Assembly: GCA_016840465.1 (NCBI GenBank)
Contig: JAEOSH010000060.1
Location: 1 to 11,921, forward strand
From: Candidatus Baldrarchaeum yapensis
Lineage (GTDB): Archaea; Asgardarchaeota; Baldrarchaeia; Baldrarchaeales; Baldrarchaeaceae
Direction: 5' to 3'
DNA length: 11,921 bases
Positions 378 to 8,116 of this stretch are shown here, piece after piece. Below the pieces are notes generated by a model. The model saw only the letters and a list, made by a program, of their open reading frames with translations. It was not told the origin of the DNA and ran no database searches. How positions within the stretch are numbered: the stretch's first letter is position 1; each line of letters starts with the position of its first letter. The translations under genes were made by a program, and so were the position numbers.

Positions 378-3215
378 ATGTTGCAGGAGGAGGTTTTGAG
401 GTGCGCGGTTAAGAGACTCATGTACGGTAAGGATATTGAGGTGGTTGAGAAGTTTGACGGGTTTATGGAGAGCCTTTTGAGCGTTAGGATGGAGTGGGCT
501 CTAAAATTCATGGAGTATGTACTTAGAGAACTATCGTCACTTGAAGGTCGTGTATCTACGAGGAATTACTTATTACGTAGCTTAAGGGTCGTGGAGCGGG
601 CGTTTTACTGGCTTATAAGGATGGGGTTTGTCGAGGATGCGGCGACAGTTTTTAGGAGGATGTTCCTCTCGTTATTGAGGGAGAAGGTCTTCGAAATCTT
701 TAATGCGCTTATGGAGGTTTACGTTAATACATTTGTGGAGATGGGGGTAGACGGCGTCTTATCACCGATTGATGTTGCAAATGAGGTGAGCAATGCGCTA
801 GATGAGTGTAAGCGGTGCGAATATGATCTGGAAGTAGCGTTGAGGGAACTTTTTTCTGTTAAGTATCATCCATTTAGGTGGACTGAGCGCCTATCGCGTG
901 TGTGGTCCAGTGCTATTGGGAGGGCGGTCATGAAGAAGGTTTTGGCGGTGATACAGGAGTGCGGCGGTATTTTAGGGTGGATTCGGAGAATGGGGAGAAA
1001 GTTTAGGTTCAATTTTCTAAGAGCGTTAAAGGAGGTGGATTTGGATCTTGCAATTAAGGTTATCGACGAGTTATGCGTTAAAACCGGTGTGGAGGATGAC
1101 GTTCTTCGGGAATTGGTCTCTAAGGGAAGGCTTGATGAGGCAATTGTCTTTGTTCGGAGGCATTCTGATGATATTTCTCCCGTAGCGTTGCTTGAGTTTG
1201 CGTTCAACATGGTGAAGGCGGGAGTTATGGATGAGGGGTTAAGAGTTCTGGGAGATGTAGTGGAGCGTGGATGGTGTTGCGATGAGGCCTCTCAGGTTTT
1301 AGTGATGAGGATCGCGGATGCTTTGGCCTCAACAGGTAAATTTGAGAACCTAATAGCCATTGCGGAAAAGGGAGAGTTTTTGCATCTTATTCTCATAGGG
1401 CTACTTGCGGGCGGTCATTTTGACAGGGCATTGAAGGTTCTCAAGCGTCTATATGTTCGCGAGCGCTGGTGTGATGAGGAGGGTTTGAGGGCGTGCGAGG
1501 AGGCGCTACGCACCAGAGATATTAAGGAGCTACTCATTTTGATATCTGACGTTTTCAGGAAGTATCATCATATGGACAAAAGTGGTAAGAGTTGGCATAG
1601 TTGGTTTTCAGGCGTTGTTATTCCGGTGTTTTTGGATCTAGGGAACTTTGAGGGCGCGGTTGAGGCGATAAGGTTTTTGTTGGAGTCCATGATGAGGAGA
1701 ATTCCAGACGATGTCCATGAGGTTTGTTGCAGTATTATTCGTTCCGTGAGGAGGCTTATGGAGGAGGGATGGGTGGAAGTTGGATATGCGATGCTTATGG
1801 AAATTTTAAAGATAGCAATTAAGGGGCGTTTTCTCGGATCCCGTGGCAAGTACGTGTCGGATGTTCTTTTGGGAGTAGCAGAGACGTTCTTTTATCATGG
1901 TTTTAAGAGGGAGGCGGTGAAGATGTTAGAAGTTTTCATAAATCTGATAGATGAGCGGATGAGTGAGTGTTGTTCACAGCATCGTGCCTGTATTAGGAAG
2001 TACGGCTCATGTTTGTTGAAGGAATATGTGACATGCTTATTAGAGCTTGTTAAGATGATTAAGGGGCATTTGGATGATGTTTGCAAAGAGAAGTGCTATA
2101 TGAGGGCAATAGACGCGTTGGGCTGCATGGATCATGTCATGAGGGGATTTTTGTTGAGAGACATAGTCGAACACGCCCTATTATGCGATATAAGTCCTAA
2201 GGCCTTGAGGAATATTATGATCCGGGCTCTTCGGACGGTGGGAGTTGTACGAGGGGGAAAGGACAATGACGTTGCGACGAAGTTGGATTATTACCTTGCG
2301 ATTGGCGAGCTGTTGGAAATTTTAAGTGTTGATGTTTTTCGGAGGGCAATTGAACTCGGGAGGTACGATTTCTTCGACGAATATGTTTGTAGGAAGCTTG
2401 TTGAAATTGCGGATAGGATTTTAGAGAACGTTGGCGACGTCCTTCTCGCCTGGTACTTAAAGATTGCTGCTGGTGCGTACTTTATGCTAACGCATGTGAT
2501 TGGAAGGGTGCGAGAAGTCATTAATGCGGTTCGAGGCGTCATCCGAGATATGGAATCGTCAAGTGTGTTAAACGTCTTTGAAGCGTCATCGCTTATGAGC
2601 ATTCTTTTGTGCAAAGGTCTGCTAAGGGAGTCATGCGAGGACGTAATACTAGCAGAGCTTGTAAGGACGATATTATCGGGGAACATATATGTATTTGGTC
2701 GTGAGAGAGGGTTCATTGAGAATGTAATGACTTCAGTGAAGAAAGCGGTTCTTTCAAGGGTTCCATGCGGCAAAAGATCGTTTATAGAGAAAGCTATTAA
2801 CAACATATTATGCGATGACATACTTCGTGTAATAATCGCGTTAGAAATCTACGACATGGCCGTAAAGGACAAAGATAATCTTATGGAGGACGTATCTCGG
2901 GAGATTCTCGAGGCTATTAAGAGGCTCGAGATAAAATTGGGAGAAAGGCGGTGCAATTTATTAACAGAGGGCGTTAGGACGATTTTGTGCAGGAGGGGAG
3001 CAATTTATACCGAAAAATGCGTATCTATAGATATTGCCAAAGAATACATGAAATTGCTACCGCGTGCGTTGCTTAAGGGTTATGATGAGCATTCACTGAT
3101 ACCAATAGGTATCGTGTATGATTTTGAGGAAATTGAGGAGTTCACGAGGTTCGCGACAAAACTTGTGTTGATATGTTTATTTGATCACCTTAGATTGTTG
3201 CAATCGGGTGGTTAA
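378..3215 (+). CDS. Large alpha-helical repeat (TPR/PPR-like solenoid) protein, paralog A, 945 aa, Cys-rich
   Basis: Uninterrupted 2838-bp ORF. About 10 degenerate helix-G-xxx-[EA]-helix units (LVSKGRLDEAIVFV, MVKAGVMDEGLRVL, LLAGGHFDRALKVL, FLDLGNFEGAVEAI, FFYHGFKREAVKML). Collinear with the downstream ORF. No P-loop or catalytic motif recognised. Confidence 0.85.
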   Translation: MLQEEVLRCAVKRLMYGKDIEVVEKFDGFMESLLSVRMEWALKFMEYVLRELSSLEGRVSTRNYLLRSLRVVERAFYWLIRMGFVEDAATVFRRMFLSLLREKVFEIFNALMEVYVNTFVEMGVDGVLSPIDVANEVSNALDECKRCEYDLEVALRELFSVKYHPFRWTERLSRVWSSAIGRAVMKKVLAVIQECGGILGWIRRMGRKFRFNFLRALKEVDLDLAIKVIDELCVKTGVEDDVLRELVSKGRLDEAIVFVRRHSDDISPVALLEFAFNMVKAGVMDEGLRVLGDVVERGWCCDEASQVLVMRIADALASTGKFENLIAIAEKGEFLHLILIGLLAGGHFDRALKVLKRLYVRERWCDEEGLRACEEALRTRDIKELLILISDVFRKYHHMDKSGKSWHSWFSGVVIPVFLDLGNFEGAVEAIRFLLESMMRRIPDDVHEVCCSIIRSVRRLMEEGWVEVGYAMLMEILKIAIKGRFLGSRGKYVSDVLLGVAETFFYHGFKREAVKMLEVFINLIDERMSECCSQHRACIRKYGSCLLKEYVTCLLELVKMIKGHLDDVCKEKCYMRAIDALGCMDHVMRGFLLRDIVEHALLCDISPKALRNIMIRALRTVGVVRGGKDNDVATKLDYYLAIGELLEILSVDVFRRAIELGRYDFFDEYVCRKLVEIADRILENVGDVLLAWYLKIAAGAYFMLTHVIGRVREVINAVRGVIRDMESSSVLNVFEASSLMSILLCKGLLRESCEDVILAELVRTILSGNIYVFGRERGFIENVMTSVKKAVLSRVPCGKRSFIEKAINNILCDDILRVIIALEIYDMAVKDKDNLMEDVSREILEAIKRLEIKLGERRCNLLTEGVRTILCRRGAIYTEKCVSIDIAKEYMKLLPRALLKGYDEHSLIPIGIVYDFEEIEEFTRFATKLVLICLFDHLRLLQSGG

Positions 3216-3237
3216 TGTTTTAATCGTTCTTGAAAAC

Positions 3238-3243
3238 GAGGTG
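3238..3243 (+). promoter_or_regulatory. Shine-Dalgarno site of paralog B
   Basis: GAGGTG ends 6 nt before ATG3250. It supports 3250 over the TTG3181 start given in the track. Confidence 0.7.
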
Positions 3244-3249
3244 GAATTC

Positions 3250-6081
3250 ATGGAGCATCTTCTCAGGCGAGTGATTTGTGCGATTTCCCGGGAAAAAGAT
3301 CCCGAATTGTTCGGGGAACTTATGGAGTTTTTAAGAGTACGGGGAGTGAAGAGTGTTTTGACGGCGTTAAATAGCACATATAATTATTTACTTTCGCGAG
3401 TTGACACGGTGGAGCCGAATGATTTGGGTCTCCTTGAAGTGGTACTCTCTTGGCTTATGAGAATGAATATGACGAATGAAGCCGCATCGCTCTTTAGGAG
3501 TGTCTTTTCATCTCTAATAAGGCGTGGGAGACTTGAGGCGTTTTCTCCACTCATGAAGATCTACGGTCGGGTATTTGCATGTAGAGAGTCGGATGATGTT
3601 ATATCGGTAATCGAGAAAGTCGCAGATGATGTGCATAAAGCGTTGATTGCATGTAGAGATGAAAAAAGGAAATTTAAGAAATGTTTGGATAAACTCTTCA
3701 GGCCGGGAGCCATAGAATCTTTCGTTACATACGAGTCTCAGTATTGTGAATCTTCGCGTGTGTGGTCCAGCATTTTTGGCGCGCGGGTCATGGAGCGGAT
3801 TCTGGCAACAATGGAGGAGAGCGGGGGAGTCATTGAATGGATACGCGTAATGGAACAGAAGTCGAGAGACGACTTTCTGGAAGCATTAAAGGAGTACGAC
3901 CTCGACCTTGCAATAAAAGTAATTAACGAGTCGGGACTCGGCAGAGCAGTAAAGTACGATCTTGTATGCGATCTTATTTCGAATGGAAGAATGAGGGAGG
4001 CATTATCCTTTATTTGGCGGCATATTGAGAGTTTCTGTTATGAGGAGTTATTTGATTTTGCACTGAGTTTTGCAAAGGGCGGATTTATCGATGAAGCTAT
4101 CGATCTAGTAAGGTATACGATTGAGTCGCAATGGGGTGATGTTTTTGACTTCTTCGATACATCTGATAGTCAGATCACATTCATGGAAGTGTTAAAAGTC
4201 CTCCTGCCGGCAAGAAGAACCCTCTACTTGATCAATTTGGCAGATAAGTTATGCATATTGGAACATGTGGTAATGGCGGCAATTGCGGGGGGTTACTTTG
4301 ATCTAGCATGGGAAATCCTAAGGCGTGATTATATAATTTCTGGTTACACAAAGGAAGAGTTGGAAGCGTGTAGGAGGGCATTGCGCGCCGGGGATCTGAA
4401 AAGTGCATTGTTATCCGTATCTAAAGTGTTCCTGAAGAGGTTTGAAGGAGCGTACACAGATATCTATTACGATTATGAGGAGGAAGAGACGGCTCTCAAG
4501 TGGTTTTCGGAGTACGTGATTCCAGCGTTTATAAACATCGGGAACATTGAGGGTGCTGTTCAGATAGTTGAATTCATGCTCGATGCAATAAAATCAGGTA
4601 ACGTCGATAAGTACATAGACGCCTGCAGGAAGCTCGCTGATGCGGCATGTAAAGTTATGAGTGCAGGTCGTCCGGATTTTGGTCGTCGTGTGTTGATGGA
4701 TCTTTTAGCGCATCTCCTTACACACGAACACGAAGATGATATATGCGAAGTAACGTTTGCGTGGATAATAGAAACCGTTCTTAAAGCTATAGAAGGACTT
4801 TACACAAATGGGTTCCACGAAGATGCATTTAGAGTTCTGAATGGAGCCATAATGCTGCTCATGTCTCGCAAATATGAATACTGGAAGGAGCTCGCAACAC
4901 AAGTCTTTATTGAAGAAGTAACGCGAAATGTCATTAATCGCATGTATATGCGCGGACACCTAGATGATAAACGGTACGTGGAATATTATAGCTACTTATT
5001 GAGTATGGCGACCACTCTCTTATCGGGAAATGAGAGAAGCAATTGTCTTAAGCATATAATCTCATCGATGTTGGAAGTCGATCCGCCTAAAGGAGTATTT
5101 AAGGAGATTGTAATGAGATTACTCGAAGTTGTCGGGAATAAAGGGGGAGAGGAGGAAAGCATCTTTTGGGATGTAGACCTTGCCATTAGTGACATTTTAA
5201 GCGTGTTCAACTCTCATATTTATCTTAAGGCCCTAGAAAATAGAAGACTTGAGTACTTTGACCGTGATATTGCACGAAGGCTTGTAGAAATCGTTCACGT
5301 AATATCTCGTGAAACGAGAGGGTCGATTGATTGGAATTTGGTCGTGACGGTATGTGCGTACGGGCTAATAACCGAGATTAATGAAATAGGACACGAGATT
5401 TTAAGAACAATATGGCATAACGTATCATATGAGAAAAAATGGAGAATATTTGAAGTTCTTGACGAGTTATCGCTTTTGAGAGTTATGGCAGGGAGAATAC
5501 TTTCTTACGAGCGTGCTTTAAAAGAATTGTTGGATGCTCTATTTGAACGGTTGCTGAAAGTACCTATATTGGCCACTCAGAGAGATTCTCTATCTATCGA
5601 TGACCTGCTGGGCGCTATCGAAAGAGCACTACATGACGGTTTATTAAACGAGGAAAGAGAAGTCATAAAATGGGCCATCTCTCGGTTACTGGGCAATGAA
5701 TTTTTGCGTTTATTAATAGCGCTTGAAATCAGCAGGTACATTGCGAGTAAAGGGTCAAAGAAAGTAGCAATGAAACTCTTTGATGAAGTACTTGAACTCA
5801 TAAGTAGAACAAACTTTTCGTTGTATGGGATCGTTAATAACTGGGTTGTAGAGGGCATCAGAACGTTTCTGAACAAAACAGGGTCTAAATACACACAAGC
5901 ATTCGGCATTCATAACGTTCATGAGAAGTACTTAAAATCTCTTCCCTCACCGCTAATCTCCGATAATGAAGTTGGCCTATGTGAAAGGAATGTACGTCCT
6001 CATCATCTAATATCTCTAACAGTGCTGATGGCAAAACTTATGCTGATAAGCGTACTCTCCGTTATTATTCCCGTAAAATGA
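3250..6081 (+). CDS. Large alpha-helical repeat (TPR/PPR-like solenoid) protein, paralog B, 943 aa
   Basis: ATG3250-TGA6081. Same repeat units as paralog A (LISNGRMREALSFI, FAKGGFIDEAIDLV, AIAGGYFDLAWEIL, FINIGNIEGAVQIV, LYTNGFHEDAFRVL). The N-terminus aligns with paralog A when started at 3250. Confidence 0.85.
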   Translation: MEHLLRRVICAISREKDPELFGELMEFLRVRGVKSVLTALNSTYNYLLSRVDTVEPNDLGLLEVVLSWLMRMNMTNEAASLFRSVFSSLIRRGRLEAFSPLMKIYGRVFACRESDDVISVIEKVADDVHKALIACRDEKRKFKKCLDKLFRPGAIESFVTYESQYCESSRVWSSIFGARVMERILATMEESGGVIEWIRVMEQKSRDDFLEALKEYDLDLAIKVINESGLGRAVKYDLVCDLISNGRMREALSFIWRHIESFCYEELFDFALSFAKGGFIDEAIDLVRYTIESQWGDVFDFFDTSDSQITFMEVLKVLLPARRTLYLINLADKLCILEHVVMAAIAGGYFDLAWEILRRDYIISGYTKEELEACRRALRAGDLKSALLSVSKVFLKRFEGAYTDIYYDYEEEETALKWFSEYVIPAFINIGNIEGAVQIVEFMLDAIKSGNVDKYIDACRKLADAACKVMSAGRPDFGRRVLMDLLAHLLTHEHEDDICEVTFAWIIETVLKAIEGLYTNGFHEDAFRVLNGAIMLLMSRKYEYWKELATQVFIEEVTRNVINRMYMRGHLDDKRYVEYYSYLLSMATTLLSGNERSNCLKHIISSMLEVDPPKGVFKEIVMRLLEVVGNKGGEEESIFWDVDLAISDILSVFNSHIYLKALENRRLEYFDRDIARRLVEIVHVISRETRGSIDWNLVVTVCAYGLITEINEIGHEILRTIWHNVSYEKKWRIFEVLDELSLLRVMAGRILSYERALKELLDALFERLLKVPILATQRDSLSIDDLLGAIERALHDGLLNEEREVIKWAISRLLGNEFLRLLIALEISRYIASKGSKKVAMKLFDEVLELISRTNFSLYGIVNNWVVEGIRTFLNKTGSKYTQAFGIHNVHEKYLKSLPSPLISDNEVGLCERNVRPHHLISLTVLMAKLMLISVLSVIIPVK

Positions 6082-6654: not shown

Positions 6655-6716
6655 TGAAAGGACAAGGTAAGGCAGAGGTATTGCACTGGTAGTTGTGTGG
6701 CGTGGTAGGGGCGGTT

Positions 6717-6807
6717 GCCCCGGTGGTGTAGCCCGGTCAAGCATGCGGGCCTTTCGAGCGCTGGGTGGAGATAGCCCGCGACCCGGGTTCAAATCCCGGC
6801 CGGGGCA
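6717..6807 (+). tRNA. tRNA-Glu(UUC) with a 16-nt intron; CCA not encoded
   Basis: Acceptor GCCCCGG/CCGGGGC, D stem GTGT/GCAT, anticodon stem CGGGC/GCCCG, anticodon TTC at 6753-6755, T arm CCGGG-TTCAAAT-CCCGG, discriminator A6807 followed by CTA. Confidence 0.96.
6757..6772 (+). other. tRNA intron at canonical position 37/38 with a bulge-helix-bulge motif
   Basis: Intron AGCGCTGGGTGGAGAT. Central helix CTTT/GGAG (two G-U pairs), 3-nt bulges CG^A and AT^A. Removing it restores the 7-nt anticodon loop CTTTCGA. Confidence 0.9.
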
Positions 6808-6810
6808 CTA

Positions 6811-6820
6811 TTTCTCTTTT
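6811..6820 (+). terminator. Pyrimidine/T-tract terminator after the tRNA
   Basis: TTTCTCTTTT starts 4 nt after the discriminator base. Oligo-T tracts are the known archaeal intrinsic terminator signal. Confidence 0.55.
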
Positions 6821-6913
6821 CATGTGGATATGCGGGGTTCACCATTCTATGGGATTAAATATTATCGGGAGGACAGTATAAGGGGATTTTGTAGGGTTCA
6901 GGGTGTGGCCACC

Positions 6914-7342
6914 ATGATAAGGGAGAAGATTCTGGAGGCGCTTAGGGAGCCGTCGACGGTGACGGAGTTGGTCAAGAAGCTGGGTAGGTCGAGTGAGCAC
7001 ATCAAGCGTGTGCTCAGGGAATTGGAAAGGGAAGGACTTGTGAGGTCGAAAAGCATAGGGAGGATGAAGATCTACTGGGTGGAGCAGGCCGTGGGAGGAG
7101 TGGAGGAGCTGGAGAGGAGGGTAAAAGAGCTGGAGGAGGAGTTAGAAAGGCTGCGTGAGGAGAATCGGAAGTTGAGGGAGGAGGCAGCGCGACCGGGCGA
7201 GATGGACAGGTTATGGGAGAAGTTGGAGGAATGGAAGGAGTATGCTTTCAAGCTTGCTGACATCATTGCATATCAGCGGGGAATGACGGTCAAGGAGGTA
7301 CTGAAAGAGACGGGCGCGCCGCTCGAGGAAGAGGAGGAATGA
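6914..7342 (+). CDS. Winged-helix + leucine-zipper + small C-terminal helical domain protein (142 aa); candidate Hop2/Mnd1/Swi5-like
   Basis: ATG6914 has an SD-like GGGTG at 6901-6905; the track's 6695 start runs through the tRNA. aa1-58 form a wHTH ending GLVRSKSIGRMKIYW. aa63-91 are heptads (L66 V70 L73 L77 L80 N84 L87). The C-terminus is KEYAFKLADIIAYQRGMTVKEVLKETG. The CDS is secure; the family call is inference. Confidence 0.85.
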   Translation: MIREKILEALREPSTVTELVKKLGRSSEHIKRVLRELEREGLVRSKSIGRMKIYWVEQAVGGVEELERRVKELEEELERLREENRKLREEAARPGEMDRLWEKLEEWKEYAFKLADIIAYQRGMTVKEVLKETGAPLEEEEE

Positions 7343-7417: not shown

Positions 7418-7873
7418 GTGGAGCCTCCACTTCCCATTGTCAGATCGCCGACACATAGAAGGAAAATGAGGTTTGGGAAGGGCTTTAGCATTGGGGAATT
7501 GAAGGCTGTGGGGCTAACGGCGGGTGAGGCTCAAAATTTAGGTATTTACGTTGACAAGCGTAGGAAGAGCGTGAGAGAGGAGAACATTGAGAGATTAAAG
7601 AAGTACCTGGAGGAGATAGGATGGGAGCCCGGAAAGTCAAAGTACCCGAAGGTCAGCAAGGAGGTCGTGGAGGAGCTGATGAAGGTTGAAGGCGTCAACA
7701 TCCATGTAGCAAGGATACTCGCGAAGAAGGGAGGGATCTCATCGATAAAGGAACTTGCGGAGAGCGATATTGACGAACTTGCGAAGAAGACGGGATATTC
7801 TAAAAGTAGGATCAATAGATGGGTGGAATACGCGAAGAAATTATTAGAATCCATCGCTACCGCAGCACAATAA
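7418..7873 (+). CDS. rpl13e: 50S ribosomal protein L13e (eL13) with a C-terminal helix-hairpin-helix domain
   Basis: The L13e signature RFGKGFSIGELKAVGL...LGIYVDKRRKS..EENIERLK fills aa1-68. aa87-142 read as a tandem HhH (LMKVEGV...ARILAKKGGISSIKELAESDIDELAKKTGYS...INRWVEYAK). GTG start with GGAGG SD. Confidence 0.92.
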   Translation: MEPPLPIVRSPTHRRKMRFGKGFSIGELKAVGLTAGEAQNLGIYVDKRRKSVREENIERLKKYLEEIGWEPGKSKYPKVSKEVVEELMKVEGVNIHVARILAKKGGISSIKELAESDIDELAKKTGYSKSRINRWVEYAKKLLESIATAAQ

Positions 7874-7884
7874 TTTTATCCGGC

Positions 7885-7958
7885 TTATGTGGCCCGCCCG
7901 GGAGACCTAGCATCATCGGGCGCCATCGGCCTCTCAGCTAGGCACTATGGGGCGGGCC
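7885..7958 (-). ncRNA. Box H/ACA guide RNA (single hairpin with K-turn); predicted target 23S rRNA U1911 (E. coli numbering)
   Basis: Minus strand reads GGCCCGCCC-CAUAGU-GCCUAGC-UGA-GAGGCCGAUGGCGCCC-GAUGAU-GCUAGGU-CUCCC-GGGCGGGCC-ACA-UAA. This gives a 9-bp lower stem, a bipartite pocket, an upper stem, box D CUGA with box C AUGAUG forming a K-turn, and ACA directly after the stem, 14 nt from the pocket top. A TTTTTAT TATA-like element lies about 25 nt upstream (7983-7989). Confidence 0.85.
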
Positions 7959-8068
7959 TTACAATAAAATGGACACATTAGGATAAAAAGCCTCATTATT
8001 TCGGTAGAATCGAATCCGATCAGATAGAACAGGATCAAAAAATAAGATGGAATTGGTTTAAGAATAAA

Positions 8069-8116
8069 AATTGTAAAAATTGTAGAAGTTGTAATTGTAA
8101 AAATTGTAGAAGTTGT
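8069..8116. repeat. Perfect tandem duplication, 2 x 24 bp (AATTGTAAAAATTGTAGAAGTTGT), in the INO1 terminator region
   Basis: Copies at 8069-8092 and 8093-8116. On the minus strand each copy contains a TTTTT tract downstream of the INO1 stop. Confidence 0.9.

What the first reader, a model, noticed from the sequence alone, without database searches (positions are those of the whole stretch)
7885..7958. Unannotated box H/ACA guide RNA predicted to pseudouridylate 23S rRNA helix 69
Seen on the minus strand: all canonical archaeal H/ACA elements (lower stem, pocket, upper stem, CUGA/AUGAUG K-turn for L7Ae, ACA plus 3 nt). The pocket strands CUCCC(G) and CAUAGU are perfectly complementary to 5'-(C)GGGAG-[UA]-ACUAUG-3'. 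That is the helix 69 sequence with U1911 unpaired in the pocket, and the target-to-ACA distance of 14 nt fits the 14-16 nt rule. Established: bacteria make this modification with the stand-alone enzyme RluD, whereas archaea and eukaryotes can use Cbf5-guided RNPs. Standard annotation usually misses such RNAs.
Basis: partly seen in the sequence, partly recalled or inferred. Interest (0 to 1): 0.72.

Follow-up and report, generated by a model that had tools for sequence, protein, structure and literature searches.

The report
H/ACA guide RNA for helix 69
The minus strand between the rpl13e and ino1 genes of this uncultured Asgard (Baldrarchaeia-type) archaeon encodes a textbook-shaped small guide RNA that should direct the enzyme Cbf5 to turn one uridine of ribosomal helix 69 (E. 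coli U1911) into pseudouridine, so it is a solid new member of a well-known RNA class.

Summary
Window 7958-7885 (minus strand) folds into a canonical single-hairpin archaeal box H/ACA sRNA. It has a 9-bp lower stem, a 6/5-nt pocket and a 10-layer "GA stem" ending in a K-turn. ACA lies 14 nt from the pocket-closing pair, followed by a 3-nt tail.

The pocket is perfectly complementary (5+6 bp, UA unpaired) to one site in the whole 2.27-Mb assembly. That site is 23S helix 69, and the target U is the sixth base of the 19-nt helix, which is E. coli U1911.

Cbf5, Nop10, Gar1 and L7Ae are all encoded. No RluA/RluD-family synthase was found.

Orthologues sit at the same place, convergent with rpl13e, in three of four other same-order genomes. 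One more was found in a second family. Stems show compensatory changes. In the sister genus the guide reads CACAGU, where the one 23S available from that genus reads ACUGUG.

A related strain has about 12% changes in neighbouring rpl13e but changes only in the apical loop of the RNA.

No RNA run was available, so expression and the modification itself are untested.

Rfam has no family for it. It is a new member of a known kind. In the papers I read, no archaeal guide or pseudouridine is reported at the 1911-equivalent. [quoted passage not shown]

The parts
7885..7958 (-). Whole predicted box H/ACA sRNA (74 nt, 68% G+C in a 46% G+C genome)
   Evidence: CM R1/R2 hits in relatives
7950..7958 (-). 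Lower stem, 5' strand (nt 1-9)
   Evidence: 9 Watson-Crick pairs with 7891-7899. 5 of 9 pairs show compensatory change in orthologues.
7944..7949 (-). 5' guide CAUAGU, pairs with 23S ACUAUG (E. coli 1913-1918)
   Evidence: It is CACAGU in the sister genus, whose one available 23S reads ACUGUG.
7934..7943 (-). GA stem, 5' strand (nt 16-25): 7 pairs, a U.U, then the G and A of the tandem sheared pairs
   Evidence: 10 stacked layers, as required by PMC4652768. 5 of 7 pairs covary and 100% of cells are paired.
7918..7933 (-). Apical C-stem and loop above the K-turn (nt 26-41)
   Evidence: Variable in length and sequence among orthologues. It is the only part that differs in the near-identical metagenome variant. 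G26-C41 is kept in all copies.
7915..7917 (-). K-turn 3-nt bulge GAU (AAU in one orthologue)
7905..7914 (-). GA stem, 3' strand (nt 45-54), beginning with GAU of the GAUGAU box
7900..7904 (-). 3' guide CUCCC, pairs with 23S GGGAG (E. coli 1906-1910)
   Evidence: The duplex is -7.0 kcal/mol.
7891..7899 (-). Lower stem, 3' strand (nt 60-68)
7888..7890 (-). ACA box, 14 nt downstream of the upper-stem closing pair
   Evidence: ACA is present in all orthologues.
7885..7887 (-). 3-nt tail after ACA
   Evidence: The 3' end is inferred, not mapped.
7983..7989 (-). TATA-like box UUUUUAU, 25-31 nt upstream of G7958 (inferred promoter)
   Evidence: Read directly from the sequence. Sister-genus copies carry an A/T-rich TATA-like box about 35-43 nt upstream of their hairpins.
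8069..8116 (-). Two copies of a 24-nt repeat carrying U5 tracts between the ino1 stop and the sRNA promoter. Likely the ino1 terminator region, which would insulate the sRNA gene.
   Evidence: One unit is missing in a metagenome contig. The terminator role is inferred.

Best explanation
This is an independently transcribed, single-hairpin box H/ACA guide sRNA.

Proposed mechanism (inferred from the family):
- L7Ae binds the K-turn at the top of the 10-layer GA stem.
- The two pocket strands pair with nascent 23S rRNA on either side of the first loop uridine of helix 69. CUCCC pairs with GGGAG (1906-1910) and CAUAGU pairs with ACUAUG (1913-1918).
- U1911 and A1912 are left unpaired, which places U1911 in the Cbf5 active site for isomerisation to pseudouridine.

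Shown here: the structure, the unique complementarity, the RNP genes, the conservation and the covariation.

Inferred only: transcription, RNP assembly and the modification itself.
For: - Anatomy and fold: it meets the rules in PMC2377435 (ACA to pocket 14-15 nt, H2 5-6 bp plus K-turn) and PMC4652768 (GA stem of 10 layers, lower stem 7-9 bp). The fold is type 10/5/9.
- Target: it is unique in the genome and the best rRNA site by a wide margin. The chance of a perfect match is about 1e-4 to 5e-4.
- Machinery: Cbf5 at 470 bits, plus Nop10, Gar1 and L7Ae. No PF00849 (RluA/RluD family) hit was found in a 96%-complete genome.
- Orthologues: found in G002, G003 and G004 (same order; record titles read Candidatus Baldrarchaeota) and in G111. 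All three same-order copies are convergent with rpl13e, as in this window.
- Covariation: 92% of cells are paired, 10 of 16 pairs have compensatory changes, and 0 of 500 shuffles reach this. The slid controls drop to 30-49% paired.
- Guide-target covariation: the sister genus has the guide GUCACAGU, and the one 23S assembled in that genus reads ACUGUGAC, a perfect 8 bp. That A-to-G variant occurs in only 5 of 400 genomes of the phylum.
- Strain variants: the near-identical metagenome variant L069 keeps stems, guides, K-turn and ACA identical and changes only the apical loop. A contig in run X6 shows the same pattern, with only two apical differences listed against about 12% divergence in adjacent rpl13e.
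- Promoter: a TATA-like box lies at -31 to -25.
Against: - No Rfam family reaches threshold. The best is HgcE at 17 bits against a gathering score of 50, E = 0.22.
- The 3' guide, which PMC2377435 calls the more important one, is not well kept. It forms 5 bp here, only 4 bp (CUCC) in the sister genus, and 3 bp plus a wobble in G111. In G111 the ACA distance is 13 nt.
- The guide-target covariation compares guides from G002-G004 with the 23S of G001. No single genome of that genus has both assembled.
- In the papers I read, no archaeal pseudouridine is reported at the 1911-equivalent. Those papers covered P. abyssi, H. volcanii, S. islandicus and S. acidocaldarius.
- The 5' half of the 16S rRNA is not assembled, so it could not be scanned for a competing target.
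Confidence: 0.8

Rival explanations
1. It is a real H/ACA sRNP RNA, but U1911 of helix 69 is not its main or only job. It could guide another uridine, for example in the unassembled 5' half of 16S, in a tRNA or in an mRNA. It could also act as a folding chaperone on helix 69 without modifying it.
For: Archaeal H/ACA motifs can serve several targets with 8-11 bp (PMC2377435, PMC11077068). The 16S 5' half is missing. Several near-perfect sites with G.U pairs exist in coding regions, such as C47 and C89. The 3' guide drifts among orthologues.
Against: The helix 69 site is the only perfect one in 4.5 Mb of both strands, at 28 against 15 for the next rRNA site. The 5' guide tracks the helix 69 loop sequence across genera. 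The geometry places U1911 exactly in the UN position, 14 nt from ACA.
Confidence: 0.1
2. It is not a guide RNA but a structured 3'-end element shared by the convergent genes ino1 and rpl13e. It could be a terminator or stabiliser hairpin, or an L7Ae-binding K-turn that regulates a ribosomal-protein mRNA.
For: It lies 11 nt beyond the rpl13e stop, between convergent genes. K-turn operators for L7Ae exist in archaea, and an earlier scan note (e1-5422391) describes one in Asgard archaea. The linkage to rpl13e is conserved.
Against: A terminator or operator does not need a conserved ACA box at a fixed 14 nt, a 10-layer GA stem, or an open pocket whose two strands match one rRNA site. [quoted passage not shown] U-tracts and a TATA-like box separate it from ino1. 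The G111 copy is not next to rpl13e.
Confidence: 0.05
3. It is a chance G+C-rich hairpin with fortuitous complementarity.
For: Hairpins are common, and 11-nt matches do occur by chance in large genomes.
Against: The probability of a perfect rRNA match is about 1e-4 to 5e-4. There is also conservation with 10 compensatory pairs, synteny, and invariance in diverged strains.
Confidence: 0.01

Closest known systems
Canonical single-hairpin archaeal box H/ACA sRNAs of Pyrococcus (Pab91, Pab160/Pf9, Pab19; PMC2377435, PMC4652768)
   Same: One hairpin with a 9-bp lower stem, a 5-6-nt pocket on each side, a K-turn 10 layers above the pocket, ACA 14 nt from the pocket and an rRNA target in UN configuration. 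It uses the same four proteins.
   Different: There is no detectable sequence homology, the target site is different and the phylum is different. The Pyrococcus RNAs are experimentally validated and this one is not.
HgcE / Pab105 / Pf3 (Rfam RF00060), motif 1
   Same: It is the best Rfam alignment. The lower stem, the K-turn boxes (UGAG ... AUGA) and the overall hairpin shape align.
   Different: The score is 17 bits against a gathering score of 50. The guide strands are unrelated, since Pab105 motif 1 makes 23S Psi2554. Pab105 has two motifs and this RNA has one. It is not a member.
Archaeal helix 69 guides: Pab40/Pf7/Af4 motif 3 (P. abyssi Psi2016), H. volcanii sR-h45 SL2 (Psi1940/1942 = E. 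coli 1915/1917), S. islandicus sR148 (U2060/U2066 = yeast Psi2260/2266; E. coli 1917 given for U2060, ~1923 for U2066 by arithmetic)
   Same: These are Cbf5 guide RNAs aimed at the same 19-nt helix at the subunit interface.
   Different: They modify the 1915/1917 loop uridines or the 3' stem (PMC2377435, PMC7075261, PMC11077068). This RNA is aimed at the first loop uridine, 1911, for which I found no archaeal guide or mapped pseudouridine in those papers. sR148 is atypical, with no lower stem or ACA, whereas this one is classic.
Bacterial RluD (stand-alone synthase for Psi1911/1915/1917)
   Same: It produces the same product at the same rRNA position. Human 28S also carries pseudouridine at the equivalent position (3727 in PMC2875026).
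   Different: It is a protein-only enzyme of the RluA family. No member of that family was found in this genome. Here recognition would be by RNA base pairing.

Membership tests
Archaeal box H/ACA guide sRNA (canonical type) | Lower stem of 7-9 bp directly followed by an ANA (usually ACA) box | tested here: met
   9 Watson-Crick bp, then ACA at 7890-7888. The criterion is from PMC4652768.
Archaeal box H/ACA guide sRNA (canonical type) | Internal loop (pocket) of about 5-11 nt on each strand | tested here: met
   6 nt and 5 nt. This is subfamily '65' in the terms of PMC4652768.
Archaeal box H/ACA guide sRNA (canonical type) | K-turn or K-loop in the upper stem, with 10 stacked layers from the pocket-closing pair to the second G.A pair | tested here: met
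   The layers run from G16.U54 to C22-G48, then U.U, G.A and A.G, which makes 10. The 3-nt bulge and the flanking G-C pair are kept in all orthologues. L7Ae binding was not tested.
Archaeal box H/ACA guide sRNA (canonical type) | 14-15 (up to 16) nt from the pocket-closing pair to ACA | tested here: met
   5 + 9 = 14 nt. It is 14 in the sister genus and 13 in G111.
Archaeal box H/ACA guide sRNA (canonical type) | Bipartite complementarity to a stable RNA, leaving 5'-UN-3' unpaired | tested here: met
   5 + 6 Watson-Crick bp flank the unpaired UA in 23S helix 69. The site is unique in the genome.
Archaeal box H/ACA guide sRNA (canonical type) | Host encodes Cbf5, Nop10, Gar1 and L7Ae | tested here: met
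   all above the curated cut-offs
Archaeal box H/ACA guide sRNA (canonical type) | Stable small transcript that associates with Cbf5/L7Ae and directs pseudouridine formation | not testable with these tools
   No RNA run holds the locus. This needs small-RNA-seq, RIP and pseudouridine mapping or reconstitution.
HgcE / Pab105 (Rfam RF00060) | Score at or above the family gathering threshold (50 bits) | tested here: not met
   17.1 bits, E = 0.22, one motif only

The most novel reading that the evidence does not exclude
This would be the first archaeal guide RNA, and the first prediction of an archaeal pseudouridine, at the 1911-equivalent of helix 69. That position is the third of the near-universal RluD sites and is also modified in human 28S.

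A second H/ACA RNA lies elsewhere in the genome (G000:C56:100589-100857). One of its pockets is complementary to both flanks of the 1915/1917 loop bases. Together the two RNAs would mean this Asgard lineage builds the whole 1911/1915/1917 triad by RNA guidance.

The guide appears to be a lineage-specific invention that has co-evolved with a rare A1916G change in its target.
Probability: 0.5. Interest if true: 0.5.

Novelty: new member of a known kind. Interest (0 to 1): 0.38.

Why it matters
Helix 69 forms the central bridge between the ribosomal subunits and touches A- and P-site tRNAs. Its pseudouridines are among the most conserved RNA modifications.

Bacteria make Psi1911 with a protein enzyme, and human 28S also carries pseudouridine at that position. 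The archaea mapped so far, in the papers I read, show no pseudouridine there.

A clean, testable guide for this position in an Asgard archaeon adds a data point on how the eukaryote-like, RNA-guided modification pattern of helix 69 was assembled. It also fills an annotation gap, because no Rfam family finds this RNA. The apparent co-variation of guide and target is a small natural experiment on guide-target co-evolution.

It does not reveal a new mechanism.

Tried and rejected
- Rfam at gathering thresholds found only a tRNA in the window.
- BLAST of the 86-nt region found nothing in 60 relatives, so covariance models were needed.
- The search for related loci with L13e in genome contigs found no relative.
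- No RNA holder is listed among the public runs. Only DNA contigs could be laid, so nothing can be said on expression.
- blastn of the helix 69 region against E. coli genomes gave no match. The E. coli numbering therefore rests on the 19-nt helix 69 register given in PMC2875026.
- I first equated S. islandicus U2060/U2066 with E. coli 1911/1917. Reading PMC11077068 Table 1 and the snR191 preprint (10.1101/2024.02.02.578723) showed that yeast 2258/2260 are the adjacent UAU pair (1915/1917), so U2060 = 1917 and U2066 = about 1923. I withdrew the claim that Sulfolobus has a 1911 guide.
- The 23S helix 69 region is not assembled in G002-G004, so the guide and target could not be compared within one genome of the sister genus.
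- A crude regex for 1915/1917 guides in the own genome gave only unconvincing hits.
- A descriptor pattern for a same-pocket guide in 98 high-quality genomes of the phylum gave 5 hits against 3 for the reversed control. None of the 5 has paired stems.
- The Odinarchaeia-sized genomes (g3) hit model R1 only through a similar K-turn and upper stem. Their guide strands differ, so they are not orthologues.
- The near-perfect site in contig C47 lies inside an open reading frame and is a chance match.

Full report
**What is there.** Read on the minus strand, window 7958-7885 is a 74-nt, 68% G+C stretch in a 46% G+C genome. Its parts, numbered 5' to 3' along the RNA, are:
- nt 1-9 pair perfectly with nt 60-68 to form the lower stem.
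- nt 10-15 (CAUAGU) and nt 55-59 (CUCCC) face each other as an open internal loop.
- nt 16-22 pair with nt 48-54. This is seven pairs, and the one at the pocket is G.U.
- Above these come U23.U47 and the tandem G24.A46 and A25.G45.
- A 3-nt bulge (GAU, nt 42-44) lies on the 3' strand.
- A short G-C-closed stem-loop caps the hairpin.

RNAfold gives -39.1 kcal/mol, z = -3.4 against dinucleotide shuffles. No ORF overlaps the hairpin. rpl13e (7418-7873, plus strand) stops 11 nt away and ino1 (9237-8137, minus strand) ends 178 nt upstream.

**Fit to the published rules.** Muller et al. (PMC2377435) found that active Pyrococcus motifs have 14-15 nt between ACA and the target position, and an H2 helix of 5-6 bp below the K-turn. 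Toffano-Nioche et al. (PMC4652768) restated the second rule as 10 stacked layers from the pocket-closing pair to the second G.A pair, with a lower stem of 7-9 bp. Here the counts are 14 nt (5 + 9), 10 layers and 9 bp. That makes a '10/5/9' fold with a 6/5 pocket.

A strict descriptor of my own required perfect lower stems, a 10-layer GA stem and ANA at 14-16 nt. It found only eight places in both strands of the 2.27-Mb assembly. This is the only one of the eight with an ACA box and high G+C (0.68, next highest 0.57).

**Target.**
- The assembly's 23S rRNA (G000:C59:1031-4195) reads ...CGCCGGGAGUAACUAUGACUCUCUUAAGG....
- GGGAG pairs with the 3' pocket strand and ACUAUG with the 5' strand, leaving UA unpaired.
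- This is the only perfect bipartite site in the whole genome.
- It scores 28 of 28 in a weighted scan, against 15 for the next rRNA site.
- Randomly drawn or shuffled pockets find a perfect U-centred site in the assembled rRNA with probability 1.4e-4 to 4.7e-4.
- Helix 69 is the 19-nt hairpin 1906-1924 in E. coli, with pseudouridines at 1911, 1915 and 1917 (PMC2875026). The archaeal helix aligns base for base, so the target is its sixth base, U1911. In this organism's own numbering it is U2139.

One caveat applies. Only the 3' half of the 16S rRNA is assembled, so a competing site in the missing half cannot be excluded.

**Machinery.** The genome encodes Cbf5 (470 bits against a cut-off of 238), Nop10, Gar1 and two L7Ae-family proteins. 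No RluA/RluD-family domain was found in this 96%-complete assembly.

**Conservation.**
- Plain BLAST found nothing in relatives.
- A covariance model built from the single sequence (R1) found a full-length match in G111 (another family of the phylum) and a weak one in G004 (same order).
- A model built from those three sequences (R2) then found clear copies in G002, G003 and G004.
- It found none in the other roughly 145 genomes of the phylum that were searched.
- An exact-pattern scan of 185,579 species genomes returned the same four archaeal genomes plus seven bacterial chance hits. It also supplied record titles: two of the same-order genomes are labelled Candidatus Baldrarchaeota (matched). 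This agrees with earlier notes of this scan that call the genome an Asgard (Baldrarchaeia) archaeon.
- A descriptor pattern for a same-pocket guide in 98 high-quality genomes of the phylum gave only chance-level hits without stems.

The RNA is therefore lineage-restricted, not phylum-wide.

**Synteny and covariation.** In all three same-order genomes the hairpin lies convergent with rpl13e, exactly as in this window. Their L13e proteins are only 55-62% identical to ours.

On the five-sequence alignment:
- 92% of cells form standard pairs.
- 10 of 16 pairs carry compensatory double changes.
- No shuffle of 500 reaches the observed values.
- Sliding the partners by 1-3 columns drops pairing to 30-49%.

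The alignment was fitted to the model, which favours the structure, but the size of the effect is large. The K-turn signature UGAG...C-(R)AU-GAU, the pocket-closing G.U pair and ACA are invariant.

**Guide-target co-variation.** The sister genus carries GUCACAGU as its 5' guide. The only 23S assembled in that genus (G001) reads ACUGUGAC in the helix 69 loop, which is A1916 replaced by G. That gives a perfect 8-bp match. The G variant is rare, found in 5 of 400 genomes of the phylum.

The weakness is that guide and target come from different genomes of one genus. G002-G004 lack the region and G001 lacks the guide at 84% completeness.

The 3' guide is less well kept. It forms 5 bp here, 4 bp in the sister genus, and 3 bp plus a wobble in G111, where ACA is 13 nt away. 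Because PMC2377435 rates the 3' guide as the more important, the G111 copy may be a weaker or drifting guide.

**Population evidence.** Metagenome contigs from hydrothermal sediments hold the locus. One variant contig has about 12% differences across the adjacent rpl13e end, but the differences listed inside the RNA are only two, both in the apical loop. A metagenome contig (L069) shows the same pattern: stems, guides, K-turn and ACA are identical and only the loop has changed.

**Transcription (inferred).** UUUUUAU lies 25-31 nt upstream of G7958, the usual place of an archaeal TATA box. Two 24-nt repeats carrying U5 tracts lie between ino1 and that box. They probably terminate ino1. No RNA sequencing run holds the locus, so expression is untested.

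**Comparison with what is known.** Rfam has no family for this RNA. The best alignment is to one motif of HgcE/Pab105 at 17 bits against a threshold of 50, and the guide strands are unrelated.

Known archaeal helix 69 guides aim elsewhere:
- Pab40 motif 3 and its relatives: P. abyssi Psi2016, one of the two highly conserved pseudouridines of helix 69.
- H. volcanii sR-h45 SL2: Psi1940/1942, which are 1915/1917.
- S. islandicus sR148: U2060/U2066. The paper's table equates these with yeast 2260 and 2266 and gives E. coli 1917 for U2060. U2066 is about 1923 by arithmetic.

I had first mis-assigned U2060 to 1911. The snR191 preprint corrected this, because yeast 2258/2260 are the adjacent UAU pair.

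In the papers I read, no archaeal pseudouridine or guide at the 1911-equivalent is reported. Bacteria (RluD) and human 28S (position 3727 in PMC2875026) do modify it. This is the one modestly new aspect.

**Verdict.** This is a real, conserved, canonical box H/ACA guide RNA gene, with about 90% confidence. The most likely target is the U1911-equivalent of 23S helix 69, giving about 80% confidence overall. It is a new member of a well-known class, missed by standard annotation. Its interest is moderate, for its target position and for the apparent guide-target co-evolution.

Noticed in passing
G000:C56:100589-100857 (locus L054 1501-1769): A second, longer H/ACA-type RNA. It matches Rfam HgcG (Pab40-like) at 28 bits, E = 5e-6, below threshold. 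It folds into two K-turn hairpins, each wrapped in a long outer helix. The 3' hairpin has ACA. Its pocket strands begin with GUUA and end with AAGAGA, complementary to UAAC (1911-1914) and UCUCUU (1921-1926) of helix 69. It may therefore be the 1915/1917 guide in a UNUN-like arrangement.
   Followed up: partly
L048/L050 (G001:C116) and L049/L051 (G111:C23): The 23S rRNA genes of two relatives are interrupted by roughly 580-800-bp insertions (probable rRNA introns) immediately after helix 69. The insertion follows CUCUC in G111 and CUCUCUUAA in G001. The window's own genome has no insertion there.
   Followed up: partly
L081-L086 (G001, G104, G071, G006, G017): The normally conserved A1916 of the helix 69 loop is G (ACUGUG) in 5 of 400 genomes of the phylum, spread over three families.
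   Followed up: partly
L041:1465-1610 (G111:C20): The G111 orthologue is enclosed by a perfect 12-bp helix (UGCGUGCCACUU with AAGUGGCACGCA) that starts 3 nt after its ACA. This may be a processing stem. It is absent from the window's copy.
   Followed up: no
window 8069-8116: An exact tandem duplication of a 24-nt unit lies between ino1 and the sRNA promoter. One unit is missing in a metagenome contig, so copy number varies in the population.
   Followed up: partly
window 7418-7873 (+): Ribosomal protein L13e carries a C-terminal helix-hairpin-helix domain (Pfam HHH_5, E = 7e-11). The alignment to the sister-genus proteins covers residues 5-143, so the fusion appears conserved in the order.
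   Followed up: partly
window 6717-6807 (+): A tRNA gene (70% G+C) has an insertion of about 19 nt at the anticodon loop (a tRNA intron). It overlaps the start of a mechanical ORF at 6695-7342.
   Followed up: no
window 378-3215 and 3181-6081 (+): Two large adjacent ORFs (945 and 966 aa) have no Pfam match at E <= 0.001.
   Followed up: no
L042-L045 (G005, G016, G026, G036; 1.3-1.4-Mb genomes): A different single-hairpin H/ACA candidate has a very similar upper stem and K-turn (CUUAGCUGAG...AUGAUGCUAAG) but unrelated pocket strands (AUAGAGAA and CGUUAAU). Its target was not determined.
   Followed up: no
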